The notes under the pieces: model-generated
Database searches by the model: none
What the model was told of the DNA's origin: nothing
The model's input: only the letters and a program-made list of their open reading frames with translations
Translations under genes and position numbers: made by a program
Shown: positions 22,001 to 64,000 of the stretch, piece by piece
How the letters are laid out: each line of letters opens with the position of its first letter
Numbering within the stretch: position 1 is the stretch's first letter
Assembly (NCBI GenBank): GCA_964016885.1
Contig: OZ024740.1
Location: forward strand, 295,802,001 to 295,866,000
DNA from: Eledone cirrhosa
Taxonomy: Eukaryota
Length of the DNA: 64,000 nucleotides
Direction of reading: 5' to 3'

Positions 22001-23350
22001 GTACCTAACAATATATTATATAGACAGTGAGTGTACCTAAGAATATATTATATAGACAGTGAGTGTACCTAAGAATATATTATATAGAGAGTGATTGTAC
22101 CTAAGAATATATTATATAGACAGTGAGTGTACCTAATAATATATTATATAGACAGTGATTGTACCTATGAATATATTATATAGGCACTGACTGGACCTAA
22201 GAATATATTATATAGACAGTGAGTGTACCTATGAATATGTTATATAGATAGTGAGTGTATCCAAGAATATATTATATAGACAGTGAGTGTATCTAAGAAT
22301 ATATTATATAGATAGTGAGTGTATCTAAGAATATATTATATAGACAGTGAGTGTACTGAGAATATATTATATAGACAGTGAGTGTACCTAAGAATATATT
22401 ATATAGACAGTGAGTGTACCTGAGAATATATTATATAGACAGTGAGTGTACCTGAGAATATATTATATAGACAGTGAGTGTACCTAAGAATATATTATAT
22501 AGATAGTGAGTGTACCTAAGAATATATTATATAGACAGTGAGTGTACCTAAGAATATATTATATAGATAGTGAGTGTACTGAGAATATATTATATAGACA
22601 GTGAGTGTACCTAAGAATATATTATATAGACAGTGAGTGTACCTGAGAATATATTATATAGACAGTGAGTGTTCCTAAGAATATATTATATAGACAGCAA
22701 GTGTACTGAATATATATTATATAGACAATGAGTGTACCTAAGAACATATTATATAGACAGTGAGTGTACCTAGGAATATATTATATATACAGTGAGTGTA
22801 CCTAAGCATATATTATATAGACAGTGAGTGTACCTAAGAATATATTATATAGACAGTGAGTGTAACTAAGAATATATTATATAGACGGTGAGTGTACCCG
22901 AGAATATATTATATAGACAGTGATTGTACCTAAGAATATATTATATAGACAGTGAGTGTACCTAACAATATATTATATAGACAGTGAGTGTACCTAAGAA
23001 TATATTATATAGAAAGTGAGTGTATCAAACAATATATTATATAGACAGTGACTGTACCTAAGAATATATTATATAGAGAGTGAGTGTACCTAATAATATA
23101 TTATATAGACAGTGATTGTACCTATGAATATATTATATAGGCACTGACTGGACCTAAGAATATATTATATAGACAGTGAGTGTATCTATGAATATGTTAT
23201 ATAGATAGTGAGTGTATCCAAGAATATATTATATAGACAGTGAGTGTATCTAAGAATATATTATATAGATAGTGAGTGTATCTAAGAATATATTATATAG
23301 ACAGTGAGTGTACATAAGAATATATTATATAGACAGTGAGTGTACCTAAG
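12630..23350. repeat. Nested higher-order duplication, periods 4835 and 2299 bp
   Basis: CTAGG at 13068/17903, AACAC at 13951/18786, CATAACACT at 14072/16371/18907/21206, ACGGTG at 15751/20586/22885. Confidence 0.86.
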
Positions 23351-26300
23351 AATATATTATATACATAGTGAGTGTATCTAAGAATATATTATATAGATAG
23401 TGAGTGTATCTAAGAATATATTATATAGACAGTGAGTGTACCTAAGTATATATTATATAGACAGTGATTGTACCTAAGAATATATTATATAGACAGTGAG
23501 TGTACCTAAGAATATATTATATAGACAGTGAGTGTACCTAGGAATATATTATATAGACAGTGAGTGTACCTAAGCATATATTATATAGACAGTGAGTGTA
23601 CCTAAGAATATATTATATAGACAGTGAGTGTAACTAAGAATATATTATATAGACAGTGAGTGTACCCGAGTATATATTATATAGACAGTGATTGCACCTA
23701 AGAATATATTATATAGACAGTGAGTGTACCTAACAATATATTATATAGACAGTGAGTGTACCTAAGAATATATTATATAGAAAGTGAGTGTATCAAACAA
23801 TATATTATATAGACAGTGACTGTACCTAAGAATATATTATATAGAGAGTGAGTGTACCTAAGAATATAGTATATAGACAGTGAGTGTACCTAAGAATATA
23901 TTATATAGACAGTGAGTGTACCTAAGAATATATTATATAGACAGTGACTGTACCTAAGAATATATTATATAGTTAGTGAGTGTACCTGAGAATATATTAT
24001 ATAGACAGTGAGTGTTCCTAAGATTATATTATATAGACAGCAAGTGTACTGAATATATATTATATAGACAATGAGTGTACCTAAGAATATATTATATAGA
24101 CAGTGAGTGTACCTAAGAATATATTATATAGACAGTGAGTGTACCTAACAATATATTATATAGACAGTGAGTGTACCTAAGAATATATTATATAGACAGT
24201 GAGTGTTCCTAACAATATATTATATAGACAGTGAGTGTACTGATTATATATTATATAGACAATGAGTGTACCTAAGAATATATTATATAGACAGTGAGTG
24301 TACCTAACAATATATTATATAGACAGTGAGTGTACCTAAGAATATATTATATAGAGAGTGAGTGTACCTAAGAATATATTATATAGACAGTAAGTGTACC
24401 TAACAATATATTATATAGACAATAAGTGTACCTAAGAATATATTATATAGAGAGTGAGTGTACTGAGAATATATTATATAGACAGTGAGTGTACTGAGAA
24501 TATATTATATAGACAGTGAGTGTACCTAAGAATATATTATATAGAGAGTGAGTGTACCCGAGAATATATTATATAGACAGTGAGTGTACCTAAGAATATA
24601 TTATATAGACAGTGAGTGTACCTAAGAATATATTATATAGACAGTGAGTGTACTGAGAATATATTATATAGACAGTGAGTGTACCTAAGAATATATTATA
24701 TAGAGAGTGAGTGTACCTAAGAATATATTATATAGACAGTGAGTGTACCTAAGAATATATTATATAGACAGTGAGTGTACCTGAGAATATATTATATAGA
24801 CAGTGAGTGCACCTAAGAATATATTATATAGATAGTGAGTGTACCTGAGAATATATTATATAGACAGTGAGTGTTCCTAAAAATATATAATATAGACAGC
24901 AAGTGTACTGAATATATATTATATAGACAATGAGTGTACCTAAGAATATATTATATAGACAGTGAGTGTACCTAAGAATATATTATATAGACAGTGAGTG
25001 TACCTAAGAATATATTATATAGACAGTGAGTGTACCTAAGAATATATTATATAGACAGTCAGTGTACCTAAGAATATATTATATAGACAGTGAGTGTTCC
25101 TAAGAATATATTATATAGACAGTGAGTGTAATGAATATATATTATATAGACAATGAGTGTACCTAAGAATATATTATATAGACAGTGAGTGTACCTAACA
25201 ATATATTATATAGACAGTGAGTGTACCTAAGAATATATTATATAGACAGTAAGTGTAACTAACAATATATTATATAGACAGTGAGTGTACCTAAGAATAT
25301 ATTATATTGAGAGTGATTGTACCTAACAATATATTATATAGACAGTGAGTGTACCTAAGAATATATTATATAGGCACTGACTGGACCTGAGAATATATTA
25401 TATAGACAATAAGTGTACCTAAGAATATATTATATAGATAGTGAGTGTACCCGAGAATATATTATATAGACAGTGAGTGTACCCAAGAATATATTATATA
25501 GACAGTGAGTGTACCTAAGAATATATTATATAGACAGTGATTGTACCTAAGAATATATTATATAGACGATGAGTGTACCTAAGAATATATTATATAGAGA
25601 TTGAGTGTATCTAAGAATATATTATATAGACAGTGAGTGTACCTAAGAATATATTATATAGAGAGTGAGTGTACCTGAGAATATATTATATAGACAGTGA
25701 GTGTACCTAAGAATATATTATATAGATAGTGAGTGTACCTGAGAATATATTATATAGACAGTGAGTGTTCCTAAGTATATATTATATAGACAGCAAGTGT
25801 ACTGAATATATATGATATAGACAATGAGTGTACCTAAGAATATATTATATAGACAGTGAGTGTACCTAAGAATATATTATATAGACAGTGAGTGTTCCTA
25901 AGAATATATTATATAGACAGTGAGTGTACTGAATATATATTATATAGACAATGAGTGTACCTAAGAATATATTATATAGACAGTGAGTGTACCTAACAAT
26001 ATATTATATAGACAGTGAGTGTACCTAAGAATATATTATATAGAGAGCCAGTGTACTGAATATATATTATATATACAATGAGTGTACCTAAGAATATATT
26101 ATATAGACAGTGAGTGTACCTAAGAATATATTATATAGACAGTGAGTGTACCTAAGAATATATTATATAGTCAGTGAGTGTACCTAAGAATATATTATAT
26201 AGACAGTGAGTGTTCCTAAGAATATATGATATAGACAGTGAGTGTACTGAATATATATTATATAGACAATGAGTGTACCTAAGAATATATTATATAGACA

Positions 26301-29300
26301 GTGAGTGTACCTAAGAATATATTATATAGAGAGTGAGTGTACCCGAGAATATATTATATAGACAGTGAGTGTACCTAAGAATATATTATATAGACAGTGA
26401 GTGTACCTAAGAATATATTATATAGACGATGAGTGTACCTAAGAATATATTATATAGAGATTGAGTGTATCTAAGAATATATTATATAGACAGTGAGTGT
26501 ACCGAAGAATATATTATATAGAGAGTGAGTGTACCTGAGAATATATTATATAGACAGTGAGTGTACCTAAGAATATATTATATAGATAGTGAGTGTACCT
26601 GAGAATATATTATATAGACAGTGAGTGTTCCTAAGTATATATTATATAGACAGCAAGTGTACTGAATATATATGATATAGACAATGAGTGTACCTAAGAA
26701 TATATTATATAGACAGTGAGTGTACCTAAGAATATATTATATAGACAGTGAGTGTTCCTAAGAATATATTATATAGACAGTGAGTGTACTGAATATATAT
26801 TATATAGACAATGAGTGTACCTAAGAATATATTATATAGACAGTGAGTGTACCTAACAATATATTATATAGACAGTGAGTGTACCTAAGAATATATTATA
26901 TTGAGAGTGATTGTACCTAACAATATATTATATAGACAGTGAGTGTACCTAAGAATATATTATATAGGCACTGACTGGACCTGAGAATATATTATATAGA
27001 CAATAAGTGTACCTAAGAATATATTATATAGATAGTGAGTGTACCCGAGAATATATTATATAGACAGTGAGTGTACCCAAGAATATATTATATAGACAGT
27101 GAGTGTACCTAAGAATATATTATATAGACAGTGATTGTACCTAAGAATATATTATATAGACGATGAGTGTACCTAAGAATATATTATATAGAGATTGAGT
27201 GTATCTAAGAATATATTATATAGACAGTGAGTGTACCTAAGAATATATTATATAGAGAGTGAGTGTACCTGAGAATATATTATATAGACAGTGAGTGTAC
27301 CTAAGAATATATTATATAGATAGTGAGTGTACCTGAGAATATATTATATAGACAGTGAGTGTTCCTAAGTATATATTATATAGACAGCAAGTGTACTGAA
27401 TATATATGATATAGACAATGAGTGTACCTAAGAATATATTATATAGACAGTGAGTGTACCTAAGAATATATTATATAGACAGTGAGTGTTCCTAAGAATA
27501 TATTATATAGACAGTGAGTGTACTGAATATATATTATATAGACAATGAGTGTACCTAAGAATATATTATATAGACAGTGAGTGTACCTAACAATATATTA
27601 TATAGACAGTGAGTGTACCTAAGAATATATTATATAGAGAGCCAGTGTACTGAATATATATTATATATACAATGAGTGTACCTAAGAATATATTATATAG
27701 ACAGTGAGTGTACCTAAGAATATATTATATAGACAGTGAGTGTACCTAAGAATATATTATATAGTCAGTGAGTGTACCTAAGAATATATTATATAGACAG
27801 TGAGTGTTCCTAAGAATATATGATATAGACAGTGAGTGTACTGAATATATATTATATAGACAATGAGTGTACCTAAGAATATATTATATAGACAGTGAGT
27901 GTACCTAAGAATATATTATATAGAGAGTGAGTGTACCCGAGAATATATTATATAGACAGTGAGTGTACCTAAGAATATATTATATAGACAGTGAGTGTAC
28001 CTAAGAATATATTATATAGACAGTGATTGTACTTAAGAATATATTATATAGACGATGAGTGTACCTAAGAATATATTATATAGAGATTGAGTGTATCTAA
28101 GAATATATTATATAGACAGTGAGTGTACCTAAGAATATATTATATAGAGAGTGAGTGTACCTGAGAATATATTATATAGACAGTGAGTGTACCTAAGAAT
28201 ATATTATATAGATAGTGAGTGTACCTGAGAATATATTATATAGACAGTGAGTGTTCCTAAGTATATATTATATAGACAGCAAGTGTACTGAATATATATG
28301 ATATAGACAATGAGTGTACCTAAGAATATATTATATAGACAGTGAGTGTACCTAAGAATATATTATATAGACAGTGAGTGTTCCTAAGAATATATTATAT
28401 AGACAGTGAGTGTACTGAATATATATTATATAGACAATGAGTGTACCTAAGAATATATTATATAGACAGTGAGTGTACCTAACAATATATTATATAGACA
28501 GTGAGTGTACCTAAGAATATATTATATAGAGAGCCAGTGTACTGAATATATATTATATATACAATGAGTGTACCTAAGAATATATTATATAGACAGTGAG
28601 TGTACCTAAGAATATATTATATAGACAGTGAGTGTACCTAAGAATATATTATATAGTCAGTGAGTGTACCTAAGAATATATTATATAGACAGTGAGTGTT
28701 CCTAAGAATATATTATATAGACAGTGAGTGTACTGAATATATATTATATAGACAATGAGTGTACCTAAGAATATATTATATAGACAGTGAGTGTACCTAA
28801 GAATATATTATAAAACAGTGAGTGTACCTAAGAATATATTATATAGTCAGTGAGTGTACCTAAGAATATATTATATAGACAGTGAGTGTTCCTAAGAATA
28901 TATTATATAGACAGTGAGTGTACTGAATATATATTATATAGACAATGAGTGTACCTAAGAATATATTATATAGACAGTGAGTGTACCTAAGAATATATTA
29001 TATAGAGAGTGAGTGTACCCGAGAATATATTATATAGACAGTGAGTGTACCTAAGAATATATTATATAGACAGTGAGTGTACCTAAGAATATATTATATA
29101 GACAGTGATTGTACCTAAGAATATATTATATAGACGATGAGTGTACCTAAGAATATATTATATAGAGATTGAGTGTATCTAAGAATATATTATATAGACA
29201 GTGAGTGTACCTAAGAATATATTATATAGAGAGTGAGTGTATCTGAGAATATATTATATAGACAGTGAGTGTACCTAAGAATATATTATATAGATAGTGA

Positions 29301-31862
29301 GTGTACCTGAGAATATATTATATAGACAGTGAGTGTTCCTAAGTATATATTATATAGACAGCAAGTGTACTGAATATATATGATATAGACAATGAGTGTA
29401 CCTAAGAATATATTATATAGACAGTGAGTGTACCTAAGAATATATTATATAGACAGTGAGTGTTCCTAAGAATATATTATATAGACAGTGAGTGTACTGA
29501 ATATATATTATATAGACAATGAGTGTACCTAAGAATATATTATATAGACAGTGAGTGTACCTAAGAATATATTATATAGATAGTGAGCGTACCTGAGAAT
29601 ATATTATATAGAGAGTGAGTGTACCTAAGAATATATTACATAGACAGTGAGTGTACCTGACAATATATTATATAAAAAGTGAGTGTACCTAAGAATATAT
29701 TATATAGACAGTGAGTGTACCTAATAATATATTATATAGACAGTGATTGTACCTAAGAATATATTATATAGACAGTGAGTGTACCTGAGAATATATTATA
29801 TAGACAGTGAGTGTACCTAAGAATATATTATATAGACAGTGAATGTATCCAAGAATATATTATATAGATAGTGAATGTATCTGAGAATATATTATATAGA
29901 CAGTGAGTGTACAAAAGAATATATTATATAGATAGTGAGTGTATCCAAGAATATATTATATAGACAGTGAGTGTACCTGAGAATATATTATATAGACAGT
30001 GAGTGTACCTAAGAATATATTATATAGACAGTGAATGTATCCAAGAATATATTATATAGATAGTGAGTGTATCTGAGAATATATTATATAGACAGTGAGT
30101 GTACCTAAGAATATATTATATAGATAGTGAGTGTATCTAAGAATATATTATATAGATAGTGAGTGTACCTAAGAATATATTATATAGACAGTGAGTGTAC
30201 CTAAGAATATATTATATAGACAGTGAGTGTACCTAAGAATATATTATATAGACAGTGAGTGTACCTAAGAATATATTATATAGACAGTGAGTGTACCAAG
30301 GAATATATCATATAGACAGTGAGTGTACCTAAGCATATATTATATAGACAGTGAGTGTACCTAAGATTATATTATATAGACAGTGAGTGTAACTAAGAAT
30401 ATATTATATAGACAGTGAGTGTACCCGAGAATATATTATATAGACAGTGATTGTACCTAAGAATACATTATATAGATAGTGAGTGTAATGAATATATATT
30501 ATATAGACAATGAGTGTACCTAAGAATATATTATATAGACAGTGAGTGTACCTAACAATATATTATATAGACAGTGAGTGTACCTAAGAATATATTATAT
30601 AGACAGTAAGTGTAACTAACAATATATTATATAGACAGTGAGTGTACCTAAGAATATATTATATACAGAGTGATTGTACCTAACAATATATTATATAGAC
30701 AGTGAGTGTACCTAAGAATATATTATATAGGCACTGACTGGACCTGAGAATATATTATATAGACAATAAGTGTACCTAAGAATATATTATATAGAGAGTG
30801 AGTGTACTGAGAATATATTATATAGACAGTGAGTTTACTGAGAATATATTATATAGACAGTGAGTGTACCTAAGAATATATTATATAGAGAGTGAGTGTT
30901 ACGAGAATATATTATATAGACAGTGAGTGTACCTAAGAATATATTATAGAGACAGTGAGTGTACCTAAGAATATATTATATAGACAGTGATTGTAACTAA
31001 GAATATATTATATAGACGATGAGTGTACCTAAGAATATATTATATAGAGATTGAGTGTATCTAAGAATATATTACATAGACAGTGAGTGTACCTAAGAAT
31101 ATATTATATAGAGAGTGAGTGTACCTGAGAATATATTATATAGACAGTGAGTGTACCTAAGAATATATTATATAGATAGTGAGTGTACCTGAGAATATAT
31201 TATATAGACAGTGAGTGTTCATAAGTATATATTATATAGACAGCAAGTGTACTGAATATATATGATATAGACAATGAGTGTACCTAAGAATATATTATAT
31301 AGACAGTGAGTGTACCTAAGAATATATTATATAGACAGTGAGTGTACCTAAGAATATATTATATAGACAGTGAGTGTACCTAAGAATATATTATATAGAC
31401 AGTGAGTGTACCTAAGAATATATTATATAGACAGTGAGTGTTCCTAAGAATATATTATATAGACAGTGAGTGTACTGAATATATATTATATAGACAATGA
31501 GTGTACCTAAGAATATATTATATAGACAGTGAGTGTACCTAACAATATATTATATAGACAGTGAGTGTACCTAAGAATATATTATATAGAGAGCCAGTGT
31601 ACTGAATATATATTATATATACAATGAGTGTACCTAAGAATATATTATATAGACAGTGAGTGTACCTAAGAATATGTTATATAGACAGTGAGTGTACCTA
31701 AGAATATATTATATAGTCAGTGAGTGTACCTAAGAATATATTATATAGACAGTGAGTGTTCCTAAGAATATATTATATAGACAGTTAGTGTACTGAATAT
31801 ATATTATATAGACAATGAGTGTACCTAAGAATATATTATATAGACAGTGAGTGTACCTAAGA

Positions 31863-31878
31863 ATATATTATATAGATA
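31863..31878 (+). repeat. Target-site duplication, left copy (ATATATTATATAGATA)
   Basis: Identical 16-mer at 37621-37636; the paralogous empty site at 40491-40506 has a single copy. Edges are ambiguous by 1-2 nt because of TA microhomology. Confidence 0.88.
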
Positions 31879-32142
31879 TATTTCTTTTATTTGCCACTAG
31901 GGCATCAAAAGTGGGACAAGTACAAAGGGGGGAGTTTACACAAAAAGGCGTCCTCAATAAGGAGGAGGCAATAACAAAATATAAAAATAAAATAAGATAT
32001 AACAAAAAATAAAATTTTTAACAAAATCCTCAATAGAGAGGAGGCGCCTTGGGGGGTCGCACACACCCCCGAAAAAAGTGTGCAACCCTTCTCCTCAGGA
32101 GCACAGAGAAGGGGTGCTCCCTTGGTCTTTCATCTTCCTCAC
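31879..32142 (-). other. LINE 3' UTR with several stem-loops
   Basis: 264 nt between ORF2 TAG and the TSD; inverted repeats at 32054-32088, 32098-32120 and 31892-31904, plus a duplicated 19-mer at 31951 and 32027. Confidence 0.8.
31886..31891 (-). terminator. Putative polyadenylation signal AATAAA of the LINE
   Basis: Minus strand reads GGCAAATAAAAGAAATA and then the TSD; the hexamer ends 7 nt before the element 3' end. Confidence 0.6.
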
Positions 32143-35100
32143 CTATAGTCTGATGTAGAGTGAAGGCCCATTCACACGGGCCATTCTCGCCACTTTCACC
32201 CATCTTTCATAGAAACGGCTGGGGTGCAGCACCTCTCTCTCCATCCTGATCCTTCTTCCGAAATGATATCGGAAGAAACGGACCAGTTGTTGGCCAGAGA
32301 GAAAGGTGCCCGACCTCAGTCCTTTCAGACGCGTCCACCATACAACCTCTTTCGCCATGGCTATTACGCACAGAAACACCGCCTCTGCTTCATCTTTGAA
32401 GGGGGGAGGCGGCTTGATCATTACAATAGACTCGGTGGTCAACCGGATCGGTCCCACCCTTGACAGCAGTTGTTCGACATAGCCCCACAGATCGGCTACG
32501 CCCGAGCAGTGTACTAATGCGTGTGCAACGGTTTCCTCGTCGCACACGCATCTGGGACAGATCTTTTTGGCGGGGTCCCTACCCGGGCGCCCGTGTCTGT
32601 AGAGCCTTTCTCGAACGGGTAAAGCCCCTCGGTAGCACTGCCAGGCCAGGGACTTCTGGAAGTTGTCCATAGGTCCCGGGCTGAATGTCCTACCGAACAG
32701 GCTGGCCAGTTCGTCCTCCTCCATGTCTAGGGCTTCTCCGAGGGCGTCGTCGCACCTGATGCGTACCAGCCCTCTATAGAATGTTGCGGTGGAGTCTCCA
32801 CTGATAACCGGATCCGCCTGCCAGAGGGCGGTGAGCGCCTGGGCACACTCAGTGTGCCAGGCGCCCAGTTTTCTCGGTCTTTGCTTGACCCAGGATTGCA
32901 GCTCGGTGAGTGAGACGAGTCTGGGAAAGGTTCGTCTCACAAACGAGGCCCACACCGGTTGTCCGGTGAGGAATACGTAGAGGTGCCGTAGCCTTAATGC
33001 GTGTTTACGCATCATTAGCCACGGCATCCCCAGCCCTCCTTTCGAAGGGTGTTGACAGCAGATGGATCTCCTCACCATAGGAGCCCGCCTCTTCCAAAGG
33101 AATTGGAAGAGCGCGCGCTCCATCTTGGTGAGGGTTTCCCTTGGGCAGGGCACTACGGTCAGGCGGTAGTAGATGACGGACGCTATGTAGGTGTTCGCCA
33201 CCTCCGCCCGGCCTTTCAGGGATAGTTTGCAACTGGCCCACTTCTGGGTCAGTGCAAACACCCTGTTCGTAACCTCCGCCCAGTTTTTCTCCACCTGGAG
33301 GTCCGGTCCGAACCAGACCCCGAGCAACTTCACCGGGCCCTCCGTCCAGCGTCCGACGACGCTATCGGAGGGCATCGGTCTGCCCCTCCACGTGCCGAGT
33401 TGCAAACCGATCGACTTGTCCCGGTTCAGCTTAGCCCCTGTGAACTTTTCGTACTCCTCCAGTAAGGTGCCGACCGCCTCGATTTCGGAGGCCGTCGACA
33501 CCATTACTGTCACGTCATCGGCGTAGGCCGACACCGCTTTCCGCAATCCCGGTTCCAAAGGGATGCCCTGCAACAACTCCAACTTCCGCAGTAGTGGCTC
33601 GAGAGTCAACACATACAGAAGGGAGGAGAGAGGGCACCCTTGTCGGATGGACCGCGCGATTTTGAACGGCTCCGAGAGGTAGCCGTTCACCTTGACCCTA
33701 GAGCAGATGCGGCTGCTGTGCATAGCAGTGATCCAGCCCCTGAAAACGGGTCCGAAGCCTGCCGCCGCTAGCACCGCATCCAGGTAACCATGGTCGACCC
33801 TATCGAACGCCTTAGATTGATCCAAGTTGATCAGAGCCCCACCAAAGCCGGGTTCGTTCCCAACCCTCTCTATGATGTATCGCATGAGGTGGAGGTTGTC
33901 ATGGATGGACCTGGACGGGATAGCGCATGTCTGCGCATCTCCCACCAGGTTGCCCACGACAAGCGCCAACCTCTTTGCTAGCACCTTCGCCAAAATCTGT
34001 AACTCTGTATTTAGCAGTGTTATGGGCCTGAAGTTACTTATTTCGTCCCCCTTGTTCTCGTCCTTCCTCACTAGCGTGACTACGCCCTTGGTCACAGTAC
34101 AGGGAATTCTCCCGTTCTGTTGCCAGTTGCAGTAGACCGCCTCGAGGAGATCGGGGAACAAGTCCGGCATAGCTAGATATAATTCGTAAGGAAGACCATC
34201 GAGACCCGGGGATTTGCGTTTGCCGCATTGGCTCAGCACGTCCTCTATCTCAGCGGCCGAAATCGGCTCTTCGCAGGACTTCGCCTCCCTGTCCGAGAGG
34301 CGCGGCAGGCCGTCGAGGTATGGACCGAAGTCCACGTTCCCAACCGGCTCCCCGCCCCTCCCGAACAGTCGGGCAAAGTGCCTTTGAAAGGCCTCACACA
34401 TCTGCTTAGGCTCAAGAATCGCCCGTCCATCCAGGTCTCGCAAAGACCGGATGGTGGATTTAGTTCCACTGTTGGCCTCTGTCACGCGGGCCCAGCTAAC
34501 AGCTTTGGTCCCCTCGTTCCCTAGAGCACGTATTTTACTTCGGACAACGCAGCCTTCGTGCTTCGCGTCGAAAAACTGGCTCAAAGCCGTTCTCGACGCT
34601 AGCACTCTGGCCACGTCGCCGCTTCTAATTGCCTCTTCTACTCTATCTACTAGCTCCCTTTCCTTCCTATTCCTATCCGCAGCTAGAACCTTACTAAATT
34701 CTATCGAGACTACTCTAATCTCTCTCTTTAGAGATACCCACCACCTGCTGTTGACGATCGCTCCAGTCAACCGTTCCTTAACTAACGTACTAATCCGATT
34801 CCTGTAGGCTCTACTTGCCGGCAAGGACAAGTTGAGCTTCCAGTAACCGGGGCCCTGTCTATGAGTTCTGTCAAGGTTGACCATGCAGGTCACTAATTTG
34901 TGGTCTGAATAGCCAACAATGCGCATTTTTGGACAACTTAAAAAGTCCTTATCCTTAATTCTAACTAAGAACCTATCTAGGTACGACCTAGATGATCCGC
35001 TACGATTTGCCCAAGTCCAGGTTGGCGCAGTCGGAAAATCTAGTCGATATCTATCGGCCAGGTCAAATCGACCGATTAACCCTTTGAGGCTATTACACCC

Positions 35101-35580
35101 CTCTCTATCGGGGCAGGCCCCTACGTAGTCCCAGCGTGCATCTAGGATACCATTCCAGTCCCCCACTAATAGCAAGGAGCGGGACGTCCCCAGAAAAGTC
35201 TCCAGACGATGGAAGAAGTCCGGCCGCATTGACCCGAAAGGGCCGTAGGCGGCTACCAACCTAAACGCTCCGCCTTTACCACTGCCAAGGTCCAGAACCA
35301 CTAGTCGACCCTCCGGGTCCAAATGTACCATCTGTGTTGCGAGACCCAGATGTTTTTGCAGCAGAACGACAACTCCACCCCCACCTCCGGGCTGACAGAG
35401 AGATGCGTGCATCTCAAAGTCATCAAAGGTGGGGGCCAGCTGTCGCACGTTGCTGATCCGGGCCTCGCAAATAACCATCACATCTATACGTTGTGACCTG
35501 AGGTCATTTAGAAGCATTGCTTGCTTCCAAGTTGAGCCCAGGCCACGCGCATTTAAACAGCCTACTCTTAGCATAGCCAT
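32143..35580 (-). CDS. LINE ORF2p: apurinic-like endonuclease, reverse transcriptase and C-terminal zinc finger
   Basis: Uninterrupted frame (track starts at GTG 35604; first ATG at 35580, MAMLRVGCLNARGL). APE motifs LNARGL, CE, GDWN, YLDRF, SDH. RT motifs KSPGLDG, RPITLLN, DQSKAFDRV, RQGCPLS, YADD (33514-33525), LLGV. C-terminal CPRC-x8-H-x4-C. Confidence 0.96.
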   Translation of the reverse strand: MAMLRVGCLNARGLGSTWKQAMLLNDLRSQRIDVMVICEARISNVRQLAPTFDDFEMHASLCQPGGGGGVVVLLQKHLGLATQMVHLDPEGRLVVLDLGSGKGGAFRLVAAYGPFGSMRPDFFHRLETFLGTSRSLLLVGDWNGILDARWDYVGACPDREGCNSLKGLIGRFDLADRYRLDFPTAPTWTWANRSGSSRSYLDRFLVRIKDKDFLSCPKMRIVGYSDHKLVTCMVNLDRTHRQGPGYWKLNLSLPASRAYRNRISTLVKERLTGAIVNSRWWVSLKREIRVVSIEFSKVLAADRNRKERELVDRVEEAIRSGDVARVLASRTALSQFFDAKHEGCVVRSKIRALGNEGTKAVSWARVTEANSGTKSTIRSLRDLDGRAILEPKQMCEAFQRHFARLFGRGGEPVGNVDFGPYLDGLPRLSDREAKSCEEPISAAEIEDVLSQCGKRKSPGLDGLPYELYLAMPDLFPDLLEAVYCNWQQNGRIPCTVTKGVVTLVRKDENKGDEISNFRPITLLNTELQILAKVLAKRLALVVGNLVGDAQTCAIPSRSIHDNLHLMRYIIERVGNEPGFGGALINLDQSKAFDRVDHGYLDAVLAAAGFGPVFRGWITAMHSSRICSRVKVNGYLSEPFKIARSIRQGCPLSSLLYVLTLEPLLRKLELLQGIPLEPGLRKAVSAYADDVTVMVSTASEIEAVGTLLEEYEKFTGAKLNRDKSIGLQLGTWRGRPMPSDSVVGRWTEGPVKLLGVWFGPDLQVEKNWAEVTNRVFALTQKWASCKLSLKGRAEVANTYIASVIYYRLTVVPCPRETLTKMERALFQFLWKRRAPMVRRSICCQHPSKGGLGMPWLMMRKHALRLRHLYVFLTGQPVWASFVRRTFPRLVSLTELQSWVKQRPRKLGAWHTECAQALTALWQADPVISGDSTATFYRGLVRIRCDDALGEALDMEEDELASLFGRTFSPGPMDNFQKSLAWQCYRGALPVRERLYRHGRPGRDPAKKICPRCVCDEETVAHALVHCSGVADLWGYVEQLLSRVGPIRLTTESIVMIKPPPPFKDEAEAVFLCVIAMAKEVVWWTRLKGLRSGTFLSGQQLVRFFRYHFGRRIRMEREVLHPSRFYERWVKVARMARVNGPSLYIRL

Positions 35581-35604
35581 GTTGGTGGTGAAGAGAAAAG
35601 GCAC

Positions 35605-37383
35605 TTACCTCTCTGCGTCCCGGGTATCGGGCTGCACAATTTCCATTAGGGTGGGGGATGGGTTGTTGGGTGGGGTGGTGGTTTGTGGAAGTGTGGGGGC
35701 ATCAGTGTGTTGTGTGGTTGGGGAGCTTGGAGTTGTGAGGGTGTTTGGGGAGGGGGTGGGATAGTTTTTTAGGAGGACGCGGTTAATGGGCCCGACGCAG
35801 GGGGGACCCACGTCCTCTTTAAAATTGTTTTTTAAAGTTTTATAGGTGTCCTGTGGGGCCTTAATCATTTTGAGGTGGGGGAAATCCCCTGCCTGGGTGA
35901 AGTTAGGCCCTTGTGTTTTTATTAGATTGTTGTTGTACACAATGTTTAACAGTTTTTTGTTTCTTGTATTTATGTATGTGTATGCATGTTTTTGTTTTTG
36001 TGTGGTGTTTTTTGTTTGCTGTTGTGAGCTCTTTTGTGTTGGTGTCAGTGTTATGTTTTGGGGAGGGTTTTTTTTCATTTGTGTGTCTGAGGTGTGTTTT
36101 CTTTTTTTTCTTTTGATTGTGTGGAAGTGCTCCTCCTCGTCTGACGACGAACTAGGGTCATCTTCCGCGTTGGAGGGGAGGGGTATATTTTCGGGTTGTG
36201 TTTGCGGTACGGGTGTTTTGGAAATTGTTTTTGTTTTTTGAGTGGAGGGGATGGGTTGGACATTGTTTTGTTTTGGTTTGAGCTGTGGTGGTTGTTTTTG
36301 TAGTGGTAGTTGTGGTGATTGTGTTGGTTGTGCAGCTGTTGGTGGTGTAGGCAGGATTGGGGTTTTCTTATTAAGTTGGGGACAGACAGCCCTCAGGTGA
36401 CCTCTGGTTCCGCAGAGGTAACACGAGGGCCGTCTACCCTCAACGGTAATGTTGATGAAGGTTAGATCATCCAGTATGACGCGTTCAGGGATCTGGGCGA
36501 TCCTTTCGGGCCTCATTTGAACTACAAGTTCGAGGCTCGTTCCACTGAACGCGTCACCCGATGCCTTTCCCATGGACACCAGCATGTCATCCTCCAGGTC
36601 CAGAAAACCTGTCAAAACCCACCATATGTCCATAATCGGCAGGATGGTGTGGATTTTTATTTTTTGTGTTCTTCTACCCATGTACGTAGGGTAGAAGGTG
36701 TATGCGGTGGATGTGATTGGTTTGATGGACAGTTTCACTGCTGTGTCCCTGTCCTTCATGAGAATGGATAGACTCCCGTAGAGTCTATCCTTCTGAATGA
36801 AGGTGATGTCCTTCATGACGTCTTTTAAAACCAGCTCTATCTCGCTCTGTGATGGTTGAGCTGGTTTTTTACTTTTGTTCGAGATTGTCCTAAACATGAC
36901 CGTGTTTAGGAGTCTCTGGCTTTTTAGTTCCGGGGGGGAATGGATTGTGAATGAACCATTTTCCCCGTACACTATATATTTTTTCGCATCCGCCAGTAGC
37001 TCCTTCGCTTTTGTTATATCTACTGGCAGATAGTCGAGGGTTTTCCTTGTCGTCTCGGCGAAGGAGAAATTTTGTTTGTTTGTGTTGTTGTTGTCGTTGG
37101 TGGTGTTGTTGTTATCATTGTTGTTGTTGTCACCGTTATTGGTCTTGTTGTTGTTATTGTTATTGGTGTTGTTTTCGTCCGTCGCATTGTTGTTGTTGCT
37201 GTTGCCGCTGGTTCTTTGAGTTGTTGCCATGGCAACGTCAAGTTGTCGGTTAACAGGTGGAGAGAATTCTTCCTCTGGCTGACCTTTCTTCTTGACCTCT
37301 GCTACTGTGACAGTGGCAGGGGGAAGCTGTAAGTTCATCTTCCCCTTTCCTCCTTCGAATTTTGGTGAAGAAGCTTCGGCCAT
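35605..37383 (-). CDS. LINE ORF1p, nucleic-acid-binding/gag-like protein (592 aa)
   Basis: ATG at 37383, TAA at 35605-35607. Single CX2CX4HX4C knuckle CYLCGTRGHLRAVC (36382-36423), Asn/Thr low-complexity N-terminus, P/Q/T/K-rich C-terminal half with DDPSSSSDEEE followed by KRKKRK; lies directly upstream of ORF2. Confidence 0.9.
   Translation of the reverse strand: MAEASSPKFEGGKGKMNLQLPPATVTVAEVKKKGQPEEEFSPPVNRQLDVAMATTQRTSGNSNNNNATDENNTNNNNNNKTNNGDNNNNDNNNTTNDNNNTNKQNFSFAETTRKTLDYLPVDITKAKELLADAKKYIVYGENGSFTIHSPPELKSQRLLNTVMFRTISNKSKKPAQPSQSEIELVLKDVMKDITFIQKDRLYGSLSILMKDRDTAVKLSIKPITSTAYTFYPTYMGRRTQKIKIHTILPIMDIWWVLTGFLDLEDDMLVSMGKASGDAFSGTSLELVVQMRPERIAQIPERVILDDLTFINITVEGRRPSCYLCGTRGHLRAVCPQLNKKTPILPTPPTAAQPTQSPQLPLQKQPPQLKPKQNNVQPIPSTQKTKTISKTPVPQTQPENIPLPSNAEDDPSSSSDEEEHFHTIKRKKRKHTSDTQMKKNPPQNITLTPTQKSSQQQTKNTTQKQKHAYTYINTRNKKLLNIVYNNNLIKTQGPNFTQAGDFPHLKMIKAPQDTYKTLKNNFKEDVGPPCVGPINRVLLKNYPTPSPNTLTTPSSPTTQHTDAPTLPQTTTPPNNPSPTLMEIVQPDTRDAER
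37073..37205 (-). repeat. Degenerate (AAC)n coding microsatellite giving a poly-Asn/Thr tract in ORF1
   Basis: Plus strand TTG/GTT runs; translation SGNSNNNNATDENNTNNNNNNKTNNGDNNNNDNNNTTNDNNNTNKQN. Confidence 0.85.
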
Positions 37384-37598
37384 TTAAAAAAATATTGACT
37401 TTTCAACAAGAAAAAACTTTTTTTTTGTTTAACTATTTCGCCTAAAGGCGTAGAATATTTTGAGAGACTGACCAGATCAAAGTTTGACCTGGCAGTCCCT
37501 CTACAAAATGGTACAAAAATTAAAGTTATCAGACAAGAATTTCTATAGAAATTTAAACAGAACTTACTCAGCAAGTTATACGCGTGTGTCCATCCCAG
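37384..37598 (-). promoter_or_regulatory. LINE 5' UTR (possible internal promoter)
   Basis: About 215 nt of AT-rich unique sequence between the (AGAT)5 tract and the ORF1 ATG. Promoter function is inferred only from general L1-clade biology. Confidence 0.55.
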
Positions 37599-37618
37599 AG
37601 ATAGATAGATAGATAGAT
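37599..37618 (+). repeat. (AGAT)5 microsatellite at the element 5' junction
   Basis: AGATAGATAGATAGATAGAT followed by GG and then the TSD; absent from the empty site. Confidence 0.92.
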
Positions 37619-37620
37619 GG

Positions 37621-37636
37621 ATATATTATATAGATA
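37621..37636 (+). repeat. Target-site duplication, right copy (ATATATTATATAGATA)
   Basis: Identical to 31863-31878; satellite resumes GTGAGCGTACC directly after it. Confidence 0.88.
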
Positions 37637-40600
37637 GTGAGCGTACCTGAGAATATATTATATAGACAGTGAGTGTACCTAAGAATATATTATATAGACA
37701 GTGAGTGTACCTAATAAAATATTATATAGAGAGTGAGTGTACCTAAGAATATATTACATAGACAGTGAGTGTACCTGACAATATATTATATAGATAGTGA
37801 GTGTACCTAAGAATATATTATATAGACAGTGACTGTACCTAATAATATATTATATAGACAGTGATTGTACCTAAGAATATATTATATAGGCACTGAATGG
37901 ACCTGAGAATATATTATCTAGACAATAAGTGTACCTAAGGATATATTATATAGAGAGTGAGTGTACTGAGAATATATTATATAGACAGTGAATGTATCCA
38001 AGAATATATTATATAGACAGTGAGTGTACCTGAGAATATATTATATAGACAGTGAGTGTACCTAAGAATATATTATATAGATAGTGAGTGTATCCAAGAA
38101 TATATTATATAGACAGTGAGTGTACCTGAAAATATATATTATATAGACAGTGAGTGTACCTAAGAATATATTATATAGACAGTGAATGTATCCAAGAATA
38201 TATTATATAGATAGTGAGTGTATCTGAGAATATATTATATAGACAGTGAGTGTACATAAGAATATATTATATAGATAGTGAGTGTATCCAAGAATATATT
38301 ATATAGACAGTGAGTGTACCTGAGAATATATTATATAGACAGGGAGTGTACCTAAGAATATATTATATAGACAGTGAATGTATCCAAGAATATATTATAT
38401 AGATAATGAGTGTATCTGAGAATATATTATATAGACAGTGAGTGTACATAAGAATATATTATATAGACAGTGAGTGTACCTAAGAATATATTATATAGAT
38501 AGTGAGTGTACCTGAGAATATATTATATAGACAGTGAGTGTACCTGAGAATATATTATATAGACAGTGAGTGTTCCTAAGAATATATTATATAGACAGCA
38601 AGTGTACTGAATATATATTATATAGACAATGAGTGTACCTAAGAATATATTATATAAACAGTGAGAGTACCTAAGAATATATTATATAGACAGTGAGTGT
38701 ACCTAAGAATATATTATATAGACCGTGAGTGTACCTAAGAATATAATATATAGACAGTGAGTGTACCTAAGAATATATTATATAGACAGTGAGTGTTCCT
38801 AAGAATATATTATATAGACAGTGAGTGTACTGAATATATATTATATAGACAATGAGTGTACCTAAGAATATATTATATAGACAGTGAGTGTACCTAACAA
38901 TATATTATATAGACAGTGAGTGTACCTAAGAATATATTATATAGACAGCCAGTGTACTGAATATATATTATATATACAATGAGTGTACCTAAGAATATAT
39001 TATATAGACAGTGAGTGTACCTAAGTATATATTATATAGACAGTGAATGTACCTAAGAATATATTATATAGACAGTGAGTGTACCTAAGAATATATTATA
39101 TAGACAGTGAGTGTTCCTAAGAATATATTTTATAGACAGTGAGTGTACTGAATATATATTATATAGACAATGAGTTTACCTAAGAATATATTATATAGAC
39201 AGTGAGTGTACCTAAGAATATATTATATAGATAGTGAGCGTACCTGAGAATATATTATATAGACAGTGAGTGTACCTAAGAATATATTATATACAGAGTG
39301 ATTGTACCTAACAATATATTATATAGACAGTGAGTGTACCTAAGAATATATTATATAGGCACTGACTGGACCTGAGAATATATTATATAGACAATAAGTG
39401 TACCTAAGAATATATTATATAGAGAGTGAGTGTACTGAGAATATATTATATAGACAGTGAGTTTACTGAGAATATATTATATAGACAGTGAGTGTACCTA
39501 AGAATATATTATATAGAGAGTGAGTGTTACGAGAATATATTATATAGACAGTGAGTGTACCTAAGAATATATTATATAGACAGTGAGTGTACCTAAGAAT
39601 ATATTATATAGACAGTGATTGTAACTAAGAATATATTATATAGACGATGAGTGTACCTAAGAATATATTATATAGAGATTGAGTGTATCTAAGAATATAT
39701 TATATAGACAGTGAGTGTACCTAAGAATATATTATATAGAGAGTGAGTGTACCTGAGAATATATTATATAGACAGTGAGTGTACCTAAGAATATATTATA
39801 TAGATAGTGAGTGTACCTGAGAATATATTATATAGACAGTGAGTGTTCATAAGTATATATTATATAGACAGCAAGTGTACTGAATATATATGATATAGAC
39901 AATGAGTGTACCTAAGAATATATTATATAGACAGTGAGTGTACCTAAGAATATATTATATAGACAGTGAGTGTACCTAAGAATATATTATATAGACAGTG
40001 AGTGTACCTAAGAATATATTATATAGACAGTGAGTGTACCTAAGAATATATTATATAGACAGTGAGTGTTCCTAAGAATATATTATATAGACAGTGAGTG
40101 TACTGAATATATATTATATAGACAATGAGTGTACCTAAGAATATATTATATAGACAGTGAGTGTACCTAACAATATATTATATAGACAGTGAGTGTACCT
40201 AAGAATATATTATATAGAGAGCCAGTGTACTGAATATATATTATATATACAATGAGTGTACCTAAGAATATATTATATAGACAGTGAGTGTACCTAAGAA
40301 TATGTTATATAGACAGTGAGTGTACCTAAGAATATATTATATAGTCAGTGAGTGTACCTAAGAATATATTATATAGACAGTGAGTGTTCCTAAGAATATA
40401 TTATATAGACAGTTAGTGTACTGAATATATATTATATAGACAATGAGTGTACCTAAGAATATATTATATAGACAGTGAGTGTACCTAAGAATATATTATA
40501 TAGATAGTGAGCGTACCTGAGAATATATTATATAGACAGTGAGTGTACCTAAGAATATATTATATAGACAGTGAGTGTACCTAATAAAATATTATAGAGA

Positions 40601-43600
40601 GAGTGAGTGTACCTAAGAATATATTACATAGACAGTGAGTGTACCTGACAATATTTTATATAGATAGTGAGTGTACCTAAGAATATATTATATAGACAGT
40701 GAGTGTACCTAATAATATATTATATAGACAGTGATTGTACCTAAGAATATATTATATAGGCACTGAATGGACCTGAGAATATATTATCTAGACAATAAGT
40801 GTACCTAAGGATATATTATATAGAGAGTGAGTGTACTGAGAATATATTATATAGACAGTGAATGTATCCAAGAATATATTATATAGACAGAGAGTGTACC
40901 TGAGAATATATTATATAGACAGTGAGTGTACCTAAGAATATATTATATAGATAGTGAGTGTATCCAAGAATATATTATATAGACAGTGAGTGTACCTGAA
41001 AATATATATTATATAGACAGTGAGTGTACCTAAGAATATATTATATAGACAGTGAATGTATCCAAGAATATATTATATAGATAGTGAGTGTATCTGAGAA
41101 TATATTATATAGACAGTGAGTGTACATAAGAATATATTATATAGATAGTGAGTGTATCCAAGAATATATTATATAGACAGTGAGTGTACCTGAGAATATA
41201 TTATATAGACAGTGAGTGTACCTAAGAATATATTATATAGACAGTGAATGTATCCAAGAATATATTATATAGATAATGAGTGTATCTGAGAATATATTAT
41301 ATAGACAGTGAGTGTACATAAGAATATATTATATAGACAGTGAGTGTACCTAAGAATATATTATATAGATAGTGAGTGTACCTGAGAATATATTATATAG
41401 ACAGTGAGTGTACCTAAGAATATATTATATAGACAGTGAGTGTTCCTAAGAATATATTATATAGACAGTGAGTGTACTGAATATATATTATATAGACAAT
41501 GAGTTTACCTAAGAATATATTATATAGACAGTGAGTGTACCTAAGAATATATTATATAGATAGTGAGCGTACCTGAGAATATATTATATAGACAGTGAGT
41601 GTACCTAAGAATATATTATTTAGACAGTGAGTGTACCTAATAAAATATTATATAGAGAGTGAGTGTACCTAAGAATATATTACATAGACAGTGAGTGTAC
41701 CTGACAATATATTATATAGATAGTGAGTGTACCTAAGAATATATTATATAGACAGTGATTGTACCTAAGAATATATTATATAGGCAGTGAGTGTACCTGA
41801 CAATATATTATATAGATAGTGAGCGTACCTAAGAATATATTATATAGACAGTGAGTGTACCTAATAATATATTATATAGACAGTGATTGTACCTAAGAAT
41901 ATATTATATAGGCACTGAATGGACCTGAGAATATATTATCTAGACAATAAGTGTACCTAAGGATATATTATATAGAGAGTGAGTGTACTGAGAATATATT
42001 ATATAGACAGTGAATGTATCCAAGAATATATTATATAGACAGTGAGTGTACCTGAGAATATATTATATAGACAGTGAGTGTACCTAAGAATATATTATAT
42101 AGATAGTGAGTGTATCCAAGAATATATTATATAGACAGTGAGTGTACCTGAAAATATATATTATATAGACAGTGAGTGTACCTAAGAATATATTATATAG
42201 ACAGTGAATGTATCCAAGAATATATTATATAGATAGTGAGTGTATCTGAGAATATATTATATAGACAGTGAGTGTACATAAGAATATATTATATAGATAG
42301 TGAGTGTATCCAAGAATATATTATATAGACAGTGAGTGTACCTGAGAATATATTATATAGACAGTGAGTGTACCTAAGAATATATTATATAGACAGTGAA
42401 TGTATCCAAGATTATATTATATAGATAGTGAGTGTATCTGAGAATATATTATATAGACAGTGAGTGTACATAAGAATATATTATATAGACAGTGAGTGTA
42501 CCTAAGAATATATTATATAGATAGTGAGTGTACCTGAGAATATATTATATAGACAGTGAGTGTACCTAAGAATATATTATATAGATAGTGAGTGTACCTG
42601 AGAATATATTATATAGACAGTGAGTGTTCCTAAGAATATATTATATAGACAGCATGTGTACTGAATATATATTATATAGACAATGAGTGTACCTAAGAAT
42701 ATATTATATAGACAGTGAGTGTACCTAAGAATATATTATATAGACAGTGAGTGTACCTAAGAATATATTATATAGACCGTGAGTGTACCTAAGAATATAA
42801 TATATAGACAGTGAGTGTACCTAAGAATATATTATATAGACAGTGAGTGTTCCTAAGAATATATTATTTAGACAGTGAGTGTACTGAATATATATTATAT
42901 AGACAATGAGTGTCCCTAAGAATATATTATATAGACAGTGAGTGTACCTAACAATATATTATATAGACAGTGAGTGTACCTAAGAATATATTATATAGAC
43001 AGCCAGTGTACTGAATATATATTATATATACAATGAGTGTACCTAAGAATATATTATATAGACAGTGAGTGTACCTAAGAATATATTATATAGACAGTGA
43101 GTGTACCTAAGAATATATTATATAGACAGTGATTGTACCTAAGAATATATTATATAGACAGTGAGTGTACCTAATAATATATTATATAGACAGTGATTGT
43201 ACCGAAGAATATATTATATAGGCACTGACTGGACCTGAGAATATAATATATAGACAATAAGTGTACCTAAGAATATATTATATAGAGAGTGAGTGTACTG
43301 AGAATATATTATATAGACAGTGAGTGTACTGAGAATATATTATATAGACAGTGAGTGTACCTAAGAATATATTATATAGAGAGTGTGTGTACCCGAGAAT
43401 ATATTATATAGACAGTGAGTGTACCTAAGAATATATTATATAGACAGTGAGTGTACCTAAGAATATATTATATAGGCACTGAAAGGACCTGAGAATATAT
43501 TATCTAGACAATAAGTGTGCCTAAGGATATATTATATAGAGAGTGAGTGTACTGAGAATATATTATATAGACAGTGATGTATCCAAGAATATATTATATA

Positions 43601-46600: not shown

Positions 46601-47599
46601 TTATATAGACAGTGAATGTATCCAAGAATATATTATATAGACAGTGAGTGTACCTGAGAATATATTATATAGATAGTGAGTGTATCCAAGAATATATTAT
46701 ATAGACAGTGAGTGTACCTGAAAATATATATTATATAGACAGTGAGTGTACCTAAGAATATATTATATAGACAGTGAATGTATCCAAGAATATATTATAT
46801 AGATAGTGAGTGTATCTGAGAATATATTATATAGACAGTGAGTGTACATAAGAATATATTATATAGATAGTGAGTGTATCCAAGAATATATTATATAGAC
46901 AGTGAGTGTACCTGAGAATATATTATATAGACAGTGAGTGTACCTAAGAATATATTATATAGACAGTGAATGTATCCAAGAATATATTATATAGATAGTG
47001 AGTGTATCTGAGAATATATTATATAGACAGTGAGTGTACATAAGAATATATTATATGGACAGTGAGTGTACCTAAGAATATATTATATAGATAGTGAGTG
47101 TACCTGAGAATATATTATATAGACAGTGAGTGTACCTAAGAATATATTATATAGATAGTGAGTGTACCTGAGAATATATTATATAGACAGTGAGTTTTCC
47201 TAAGAATATATTATATAGACAGCAAGTGTACTGAATATATATTATATAGACAATGAGTGTACCTAAGAATATATTATATAGACAGTGAGTGTACCTAAGA
47301 ATATATTATATAGACCGTGAGTGTACCTAAGAATATAATATATAGACAGTGAGTGTACCTAAGAATATATTATATAGACAGTGAGTGTTCCTAAGAATAT
47401 ATTATATAGACAGTGAGTGTACTGAATATATATTATATAGACAATGAGTGTCCCTAAGAATATATTATATAGACAGTGAGTGTACCTAACAATATATTAT
47501 ATAGACAGTGAGTGTACCTAAGAATATATTATATAGACAGCCAGTGTACTGAATATATATTATATATACAATGAGTGTACCTAAGAATATATTATATAG

Positions 47600-63780: not shown

Positions 63781-64000
63781 GACAGTGCGTGTACATAAGA
63801 ATATATTATATAGACAGTGAGTGTACCTAAGAATATATTATATAGATAGTGAATGTACCTGAGAATATATTATATAGACAGTGAGTGTACCTAAGAATAT
63901 ATTATATAGATAGTGAGTGTACCTGAGAATATATTATATAGACAGTGAGTGTTCCTAAGAATATATTATATAGACAGCAAGTGTACTGAATATATATTAT

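What the first reader, a model, noticed from the sequence alone, without database searches (positions are those of the whole stretch)
31863..37636. Candidate GATA-repeat-targeting Tx1-like retrotransposon inserted in a satellite
Seen: the element carries (AGAT)5GG at its 5' junction, which the empty site lacks. Its 3' junction falls right after ...TATAGATA, a minority GATA variant of the monomer (consensus TATAGACA), and the site does not resemble the canonical L1 5'-TTTT/AA target. Established: Tx1-clade elements are often sequence-specific (Kibi for (TC)n, Koshi for (TTC)n, Keno for U2 snRNA, Dewa for tRNA spacers, Mutsu for 5S rDNA). Inference: the donor copy sat in a (GATA)n tract and carried flanking target sequence along, and the endonuclease recognised the GATA-like variant here. 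That would be a family with possibly undescribed specificity. A single insertion cannot prove it.
Basis: partly seen in the sequence, partly recalled or inferred. Interest (0 to 1): 0.8.

Follow-up and report, generated by a model that had tools for sequence, protein, structure and literature searches.

The report
Young LINE that targets GATA repeats
A young jumping gene with about two thousand copies in what is likely an octopus genome inserts mostly into GATA-type repeats and picks out the rare GATA variant even inside other satellite DNA, likely because its own cutting enzyme reads that sequence.

Summary
Observation confirmed; the targeting inference holds genome-wide. Window 31879-37600 (minus strand) is an intact two-ORF, APE-type LINE with a 16-bp target-site duplication. 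Its ORF2 is closer to Xenopus Tx1L (314 bits) than to human L1 (167 bits). Of 1,959 family 3' ends, 1,514 are followed by TATCTAT and 187 by TATATAT. A near-identical pattern found none followed by TGTCTAT, the satellite consensus. TATATAT is 43 times commoner in sampled background. Five copies in this satellite array and three in an unrelated one all join the roughly 10% TATCTAT monomer variant. Truncated copies duplicate that variant on both sides, so it is target, not tail. The (AGAT)5GG cap is not fixed: 0-25 units precede other full-length copies. No separate donor with this exact cap was found. However, a second copy 83 kb away carries the same cap plus about 450 bp of this locus's flank on another subfamily's body, so 5' flanks do move. 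Endonuclease-driven recognition is inferred, not shown. Microsatellite-targeting Tx1 elements are known (Kibi, Koshi, crocodilian families). Ten literature searches found no (GATA)n target, but Repbase and Dfam could not be checked. New variant of a known kind.

The parts
31863..31878 (.). Target-site duplication, copy at the element's 3' end (reads TATCTATATAATATAT on the element strand)
   Evidence: empty site matched
31879..32142 (-). 3' UTR ending ...AATAAAAGAAATA; AATAAA signal but no poly(A) tail; weakly structured (z -2.09, 7 of 200 shuffles as stable)
32143..35580 (-). ORF2, 1145 aa: APE endonuclease (N10, E39, Y112, D141, N143, D202, D226, H227; residue roles recalled from the APE family), RT with YADD at 686, C-terminal zf-RVT-like cysteine motif
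35605..37383 (-). ORF1, 592 aa: one CCHC knuckle, predicted RRM-like RNA-binding region, Asn-rich and Pro/Thr-rich low-complexity stretches (type I ORF1p-like)
   Evidence: zf-CCHC E 0.051, below cut-off; feature hits 0.90-0.92 to zf-CCHC, RRM and ZCCHC3-type clusters
37384..37600 (-). 5' UTR; family-fixed 5' end is TCT-GGGA(T/C)GG
37601..37620 (-). Extra 20-nt cap CC(ATCT)4AT, absent from the empty site; found with this element start only here and at C1:295922827
37621..37636 (.). Target-site duplication, copy at the element's 5' end
37637..38083 (.). About 450 bp of satellite flank that reappears, identical, as a 5' extension of copy B 83 kb away
1..64000 (.). 32-bp satellite array with higher-order structure, hosting the element; it continues over the whole 222 kb fetched

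Best explanation
This is an intact copy of a young LINE, likely of the Tx1 group, whose copies join target DNA precisely in front of TATCTAT, mostly inside (TATC)n/(GATA)n microsatellites, likely because its own endonuclease nicks the opposite strand at 5'-ATAGATA. SHOWN: junction phase and sequence; duplications of about 7-20 bp; no poly(A) tail; choice of the TATC variant over the TGTC consensus in two satellites; tandem piling of kin elements in the same tracts; recent spread (identical full-length copies at different loci). INFERRED: the bottom strand is nicked after 5'-ATAGATA-3'; the freed end primes reverse transcription at the element's 3' end, perhaps helped by pairing with a few read-through UAUC bases; the top strand is cut 7-20 nt away. 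INFERRED for the 5' end: full-length cDNA extends into upstream flank, normally (CTAT)n, which anneals invisibly in a microsatellite target but shows up as a foreign cap when the target is a satellite monomer, as here. Odds by step: sequence-specific targeting 0.97; Tx1 group 0.85; endonuclease as main determinant 0.7; cap copied from another copy's flank 0.7.
For: Genome-wide: 1,514 TATCTAT and 187 TATATAT among 1,959 3' ends; 0 TGTCTAT with a slightly shorter prefix. Background in 190 kb: 160, 6,934 and 41 sites respectively, giving about 350-fold preference over TATATAT and about 390 TGTCTAT junctions expected if they were used equally. Among 96 full-length copies with both ends, 85 start TATCTAT and positions T1, A2, T5 never vary. 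This array: 5 of 5 copies at a variant that is 536 of 4,961 monomers (P 1.4e-4 for the four simple insertions). Truncated copies C, D, E carry the variant on both sides (duplications 14, 11, 7 bp), and C has an exact empty site over 200-bp arms. Second, unrelated 49-bp satellite: 3 of 3 at TATCTATGTTG (120 sites) against TGTCTATGTTG (978), with an 11-bp duplication on the truncated copy. Subfamilies ending in TA, CA, CT, GT, AT or TC all join at the same target position. 43 of 96 copies have both ORFs open; three pairs show 0 substitutions. Copy B shows a 5' flank moved from this very locus.
Against: No biochemical test; junctions cannot separate nicking from priming. 258 of 1,959 3' ends (13%) match neither 7-mer and were not examined genome-wide. 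No separate donor with the exact cap. Some full-length copies in non-(TATC)n targets have no clear cap (L121, L115, L090), and several odd 5' fillers are unique (L098, L116, L119, L123, L126, L149), which fits untemplated or repair-derived joins as well. L114 and L099 share a rare cap (2 in the genome) but their bodies differ by about 6%, so they are not donor and daughter. The branch joining this lineage to the Tx1L clade has SH-aLRT 86, unstarred, and the tree lacks a vertebrate L1 row. The background sample is small (19 x 10 kb).
Confidence: 0.75

Rival explanations
1. Same targeting, but the choice is made at priming: a loosely TA-specific endonuclease nicks widely, and only ends that pair with read-through UAUCUAU in the RNA are extended.
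For: No poly(A) tail despite AATAAA. Most donors are followed by (TATC)n (70 of 96 with three or more units), so their RNA could carry it. The forbidden TGTCTAT variant would mismatch at the second base from the primer end, while the tolerated TATATAT mismatches at the fourth (inference).
Against: All 8 satellite insertions have no added TATC unit at the 3' junction, so the start is precise rather than slipping along a repeat. Tx1L endonuclease nicks its target specifically in vitro (PMC1950540, passages).
Confidence: 0.18
2. Targeting as in the best explanation, but the 5' cap and copy B's extension arise at the DNA level: slippage or untemplated filler at the 5' join, and later gene conversion between same-orientation copies in an array, with no flank carried during insertion.
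For: In the second array two full-length copies share 2,742 bp of 5' flank but differ at 13 sites in the body and in the 3' flank, with no clear empty site, as unequal exchange would give. Unique fillers are common.
Against: In copy B the copied patch ends within a 31-bp window holding the nick site of its best empty site (463 bp upstream; 4 mismatches in 600 bp against 24 at the visible junction), where an insertion-coupled event would put it. 0 of 4 truncated satellite copies have a cap.
Confidence: 0.3
3. (TATC)n is the element's own head and tail, and it inserts at merely AT-rich sites.
For: Most full-length copies have (TATC)n on both sides (81 of 100 at the 5' side, 70 of 96 at the 3' side).
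Against: Satellite insertions have no tail and duplicate a pre-existing TATCTAT; 5'-truncated copies also have TATC or TA repeats upstream; unit number varies 0-25; TATATAT is 43 times commoner yet 8 times rarer at junctions.
Confidence: 0.02
4. Random insertion followed by selective survival in microsatellites.
For: Passive accumulation near CA repeats was proposed for Drosophila Waldo-A/B (PMC3812793, passage).
Against: Exact phase and strand at the junction in 96 of 96 for T1, A2, T5; single-base choice within neutral satellites; copies are very young.
Confidence: 0.01

Closest known systems
Kibi and Koshi (teleost Tx1 clade) and crocodilian Tx1 families
   Same: Tx1-type elements that insert into microsatellites: Kibi (TC)n, Koshi (TTC)n, crocodilian group (TTCC)n/(TTTC)n (PMC4494074 passages; PMC3812793 passages). 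Pyrimidine-rich repeat on the element's sense strand, as here.
   Different: Target here is (TATC)n with a TATCTAT core. The lineage is a separate branch from all vertebrate rows in the tree. Whether any vertebrate row is Kibi or Koshi is unknown (the Tetraodon pol-like protein BAC82605.1 is not named), so descent from them is untested.
Tx1L of Xenopus laevis (P14381)
   Same: Two ORFs, APE endonuclease plus RT; closer named reference than any L1 (314 bits, 30% identity); sequence-specific insertion.
   Different: Tx1L targets the Tx1D transposon. Its endonuclease hairpin has 11 residues with RDGH; here 9 residues, WANRSGSSR.
Mammalian LINE-1
   Same: Same L1 group; ORF2 matches over residues 8-857 (167 bits); duplications of similar length (L1 range recalled).
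   Different: No poly(A) tail, no TTTT/AA target, ORF1 has a CCHC knuckle rather than Transposase_22.
R2 elements that keep upstream 28S sequence on their RNA
   Same: [quoted passage not shown]
   Different: R2 has a restriction-like endonuclease and a ribozyme; only a distant RT match here (72 bits or less). No ribozyme was looked for.
L1-Tx1 families of Octopus vulgaris
   Same: 13 recently active L1-Tx1 families with 421 insertions reported (PMC13282606, passages).
   Different: The passages seen give no target analysis; its library was not compared.

Membership tests
L1 group (APE-type non-LTR retrotransposon) | ORF2 with N-terminal APE endonuclease, RT and C-terminal cysteine motif | tested here: met
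   Pfam Exo_endo_phos 5e-8, RVT_1 5e-26, zf-RVT 4e-5 (below curated cut-off); L1 ORF2p is the best PDB match, R2 far behind
L1 group (APE-type non-LTR retrotransposon) | Target-site duplication and 5'-truncated copies with a common 3' end | tested here: met
   16 bp here; 7-20 bp in others; 329 exact 5' ends against 1,959 exact 3' ends
Tx1 clade | ORF2 closer to Tx1L than to L1 | tested here: met
   phmmer 314 bits to P14381 against 167 to human L1 and at most 143 to plant L1; Tx1L itself scores 263 to human L1
Tx1 clade | RT phylogeny places it inside the clade defined by Repbase Tx1 references | tested here: inconclusive
   Groups with the Tx1L-containing clade away from plant L1 at SH-aLRT 86-94, unstarred; no vertebrate L1 row and no Repbase set available
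Tx1 clade | ORF1 of RRM/zf-CCHC type rather than Transposase_22 | tested here: met
   CX2CX4HX4C present, weak Pfam hit, no Transposase_22 hit; Atlas leads 0.90-0.92; association with Tx1 from PMC5203782 passages
Target-specific family (Kojima's criterion: one sequence type in over 20% of flanks) | Enrichment of one flank type | tested here: met
   77% of 1,959 3' ends; criterion from PMC4494074
Kibi / Koshi | Insertion into (TC)n or (TTC)n | tested here: not met
   0 of 96 full-length 3' flanks begin with TC or TTC repeats
Kibi / Koshi | Membership of their RT lineage | not testable with these tools
   No identified Kibi or Koshi sequence was returned by any search
Mammalian-type L1 | Poly(A) tail and TTTT/AA target | tested here: not met
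Sequence-specific Tx1 elements | Endonuclease nicks the target in vitro | not testable with these tools
   needs a nicking assay

The most novel reading that the evidence does not exclude
An octopod lineage of Tx1 elements (over 12,000 insertions counted here across sister families) is a (GATA)n specialist that reads a single base of its target, and it finishes full-length insertions by copying the 5' end and flank of a resident sister copy nearby. It would thereby move hundreds of bases of satellite or microsatellite DNA, make inter-subfamily chimeras, and seed new GATA tracts that become its own next targets.
Probability: 0.3. Interest if true: 0.72.

Novelty: new variant of a known kind. 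Interest (0 to 1): 0.52.

Why it matters
It adds a target, (TATC)n/(GATA)n, to the short list of microsatellites hit by APE-type retrotransposons; a 2013 review says the mechanism of such targeting is not well understood (PMC3812793, passage). The family is unusually testable: intact, near-identical copies exist, and the genome supplies a natural one-base experiment (TATCTAT used, TGTCTAT never). That gives an exact substrate pair for asking whether the endonuclease or RNA-primer pairing decides. Copy B is a rare readable record of how a 5' junction is completed, because satellite monomers act as barcodes. In practice, GATA-type markers and repeat annotation in this genome are entangled with these elements. 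It is not a new kind of system.

Tried and rejected
(1) A sister lineage with a shifted target (TACC)n: suggested by L114 and L115. Rejected: of the first 100 of 894 such 3' ends, 81 are followed by TATCTAT and 4 by TACC, and the two copies share no private endonuclease change. (2) Donor of the window's cap: only the window copy and copy B match. (3) L099 as donor of L114: bodies about 6% apart. (4) Empty-site mapping in the second array gave no clear minimum. (5) L131/L132 share flanks because they lie in a larger repeat, so they are uninformative. (6) DNA search with the 3' UTR returned nothing because common words are skipped; patterns were used instead. (7) No RNA holder listed; contigs laid showed the family in one other sample coded as the same organism and only thin cover in two other runs, which says nothing about flanks in other species. 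(8) Of the 42 rows, about 17 had no duplication; most of these are internal alignment breaks, so the table was not used for counts. (9) Earlier findings of this scan: nothing in three look-ups. (10) Ten literature searches found no (GATA)n-targeting LINE. Kojima and Fujiwara 2004 and Christensen et al. 2000 are not held, supplements of PMC4494074 could not be read, and Repbase/Dfam are not searchable; any of these could already list such a family. (11) No structure was predicted; it would not separate the rivals.
Full report
1. Observation. The window is one 32-bp satellite array interrupted by a 5.7-kb element on the minus strand. The duplication is 16 bp, at 31863-31878 and 37621-37636. The extra (AGAT)5GG is at 37599-37620, and the GATA monomer variant is 202 of 1,726 monomers. 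Joining the flanks at the duplication matches an empty place in the array with 3 mismatches in 600 bp; the next best of 22 offsets gives 13.

2. Anatomy. On the element strand: cap CC(ATCT)4AT, 217-nt 5' UTR, ORF1 (592 aa), a 24-nt spacer, ORF2 (1145 aa), and a 264-nt 3' UTR ending AATAAAAGAAATA with no poly(A). ORF2 has endonuclease, RT and zf-RVT-like domains with the expected catalytic motifs (roles recalled). ORF1 has one CCHC knuckle and resembles RRM/CCHC clusters (leads only). The nearest named protein is from Argonauta hians (67% over the RT region), so the host is inferred to be an octopod.

3. Family. The 3.0-Gb genome holds 1,959 exact matches to the 3' end and 329 to the 5' end. 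I fetched 39 copies chosen by 5' UTR similarity and 60 more in genome order from the first two contigs. With the window copy and copy B, 100 had a recognisable 5' end (one of the 39 did not) and 96 had both ends. Identity of the 39 to the window copy is 95-99.9%. 43 of 96 have both ORFs open, and three pairs at different loci show no substitution. The family is young and probably still moving.

4. Target, genome-wide. After the last two element bases, 1,514 of 1,959 3' ends continue TATCTAT and 187 TATATAT. None continues TGTCTAT (prefix four bases shorter). The remaining 258 were not classified. In 190 kb of evenly spaced background, both strands, the three 7-mers occur 160, 6,934 and 41 times. 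That is about 350-fold preference per site for TATCTAT over TATATAT, and about 390 TGTCTAT junctions expected under equal use. Among the 96 full-length copies 85 begin TATCTAT; T1, A2 and T5 are invariant; 70 have three or more TATC units downstream; 81 of 100 have three or more upstream. Kin with other 3' ends share the target: 9,620 matches for one pattern that required TATCTATC (no denominator) and 81 of the first 100 of 894 for another. 44 of 100 full-length copies lie within 200 bp behind a kin element's 3' end, and three copies are stacked at one re-used site.

5. The natural experiment. In 182 kb of this array there are five copies, all in one orientation and all joined to the TATC variant, which is 536 of 4,961 monomers; 40 kb more held none. 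Three are 5'-truncated at different points with duplications of 14, 11 and 7 bp. Each shows TATCTAT on the upstream side too, so the variant was in the target and was not supplied by the RNA. The chance of four independent hits on that variant, given the monomer phase, is 1.4e-4. An unrelated 49-bp satellite on another contig has consensus TGTCTATGTTG (978) and variant TATCTATGTTG (120); its three copies all join the variant, the truncated one with an 11-bp duplication. This excludes a repeat tail, plain AT preference and passive survival.

6. The 5' cap. The fixed 5' end is TCT-GGGA; perfect CTAT units before it range from 0 to 25. In non-(TATC)n targets some full-length copies carry extra CTAT units (window copy, L088/L089, L114) and some do not (L121, L115, L090), while 0 of 4 truncated satellite copies do. 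The exact cap occurs twice in the genome. The second, copy B at C1:295922841-295917115, has a body 2-3 substitutions from L134/L153 but 25 from the window copy. Its upstream flank is identical to the window copy's for 474 bp beyond the junction, a string found nowhere else in the 182 kb at 300-bp arm length. Its best empty site lies 463 bp upstream, again at a TATC monomer (4 mismatches in 600 bp, against 24 at the visible junction). So B carries about 450 bp of satellite plus the cap copied from the window locus, with the switch inside the first 170 nt of the element, where the two subfamilies do not differ. The patch ends within 31 bp that include B's nick site, which favours an insertion-coupled template switch over later conversion but does not prove it. 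In the second array two full-length copies likewise share 2,742 bp of 5' flank with different bodies and 3' flanks, but there the site could not be resolved. Mis-assembly was not excluded in either case.

7. Mechanism. Inferred: the endonuclease nicks the bottom strand after 5'-ATAGATA; the next base is usually G but can be T at re-used sites. The 3' end primes reverse transcription at the element's last bases, whose identity varies by subfamily without moving the junction. The top strand is cut 7-20 nt away. Full-length cDNA may include upstream flank that anneals to the target, as postulated for R2 (PMC3774820, abstract). The main rival is selection at priming by read-through UAUCUAU; the tolerated and forbidden variants fit it, and only an assay separates the two.

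8. Comparison with what is known. ORF2 scores 314 bits against Xenopus Tx1L (P14381), 167 against human L1 and at most 143 against plant L1. In a 70-row RT tree the element forms a starred clade with Argonauta and genomic sisters, next to unnamed ENA proteins. It groups with the Tx1L clade at SH-aLRT 86, away from plants; no vertebrate L1 row was available. It works like Kibi, Koshi and the crocodilian (TTCC)n/(TTTC)n families (PMC4494074 and PMC3812793, passages) but fails their target test. Other listed microsatellite targets are ACAY, AC, TAA and TG; none is GATA. Papers seen: passages of PMC4494074, PMC3812793, PMC13282606, PMC1950540, PMC5203782, PMC4640811, PMC8869645 and PMC13708176; abstract of PMC3774820; listings only for the rest.

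9. Verdict. A real, well-supported target-specific family, likely Tx1, with a target not found in ten searches of the open literature. Repbase and Dfam were out of reach, so it may already be catalogued there. New variant of a known kind; interest 0.52, raised by the one-base natural experiment and the readable 5' chimera.

Noticed in passing
G000:C1:295922841-295917115 (L102), 57 kb beyond the window: Chimeric full-length copy: body of one subfamily, 5' cap and about 450 bp of satellite flank identical to the window locus; true insertion site 463 bp upstream.
   Followed up: yes
G000:C2:25016001-25114000 (L176-L184, L210): Unrelated 49-bp satellite that shares the CAC-TGTCTAT/TATCTAT motif with the window's 32-bp satellite and holds three copies; two share 2,742 bp of 5' flank.
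   Followed up: partly
G000:C1:295955.9k-295959.5k (L187): A 3.5-kb non-coding insert in the same satellite, ends resembling TC...CTAG between A and T; Helitron-like by recalled hallmarks; no ORF over 200 aa and no match to ORF2.
   Followed up: partly
G000:C1:42268242-42269578 (L053-L055): Three truncated copies stacked at one site with only two TATC units; each new copy inserted at the previous 3' junction (duplications 11 and about 18-20 bp).
   Followed up: partly
window 1-64000 and C1:295752001-295974000: The 32-bp satellite spans at least 222 kb with higher-order repeats and strong strand skew (GC skew about 0.35); role (for example centromeric) untested.
   Followed up: no
L114, L115, L217 (C1:18.04 and 19.05 Mb): Copies of an older subfamily inserted in (TACC)n tracts at TACCTA; 4 of 100 such ends, so tolerated rather than a shifted target.
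   Followed up: yes
L028:4676 side, L090, L093, L098, L118, L120, L122: Copies with internal deletions, and one truncated copy with an opposite-strand (GATA)n run at its 5' junction.
   Followed up: no
P0155, P0004 and P0012 clusters (385-732 members each): Large families of about 40%-identical ORF2 relatives in unnamed ENA assemblies form the sister clade; their hosts and targets are unknown.
   Followed up: no
flanks of L045, L123, L125, L131, L132, L142: A recurring sequence directly after the (TATC)n 3' flank, probably the 5' end of another family using the same tracts.
   Followed up: no
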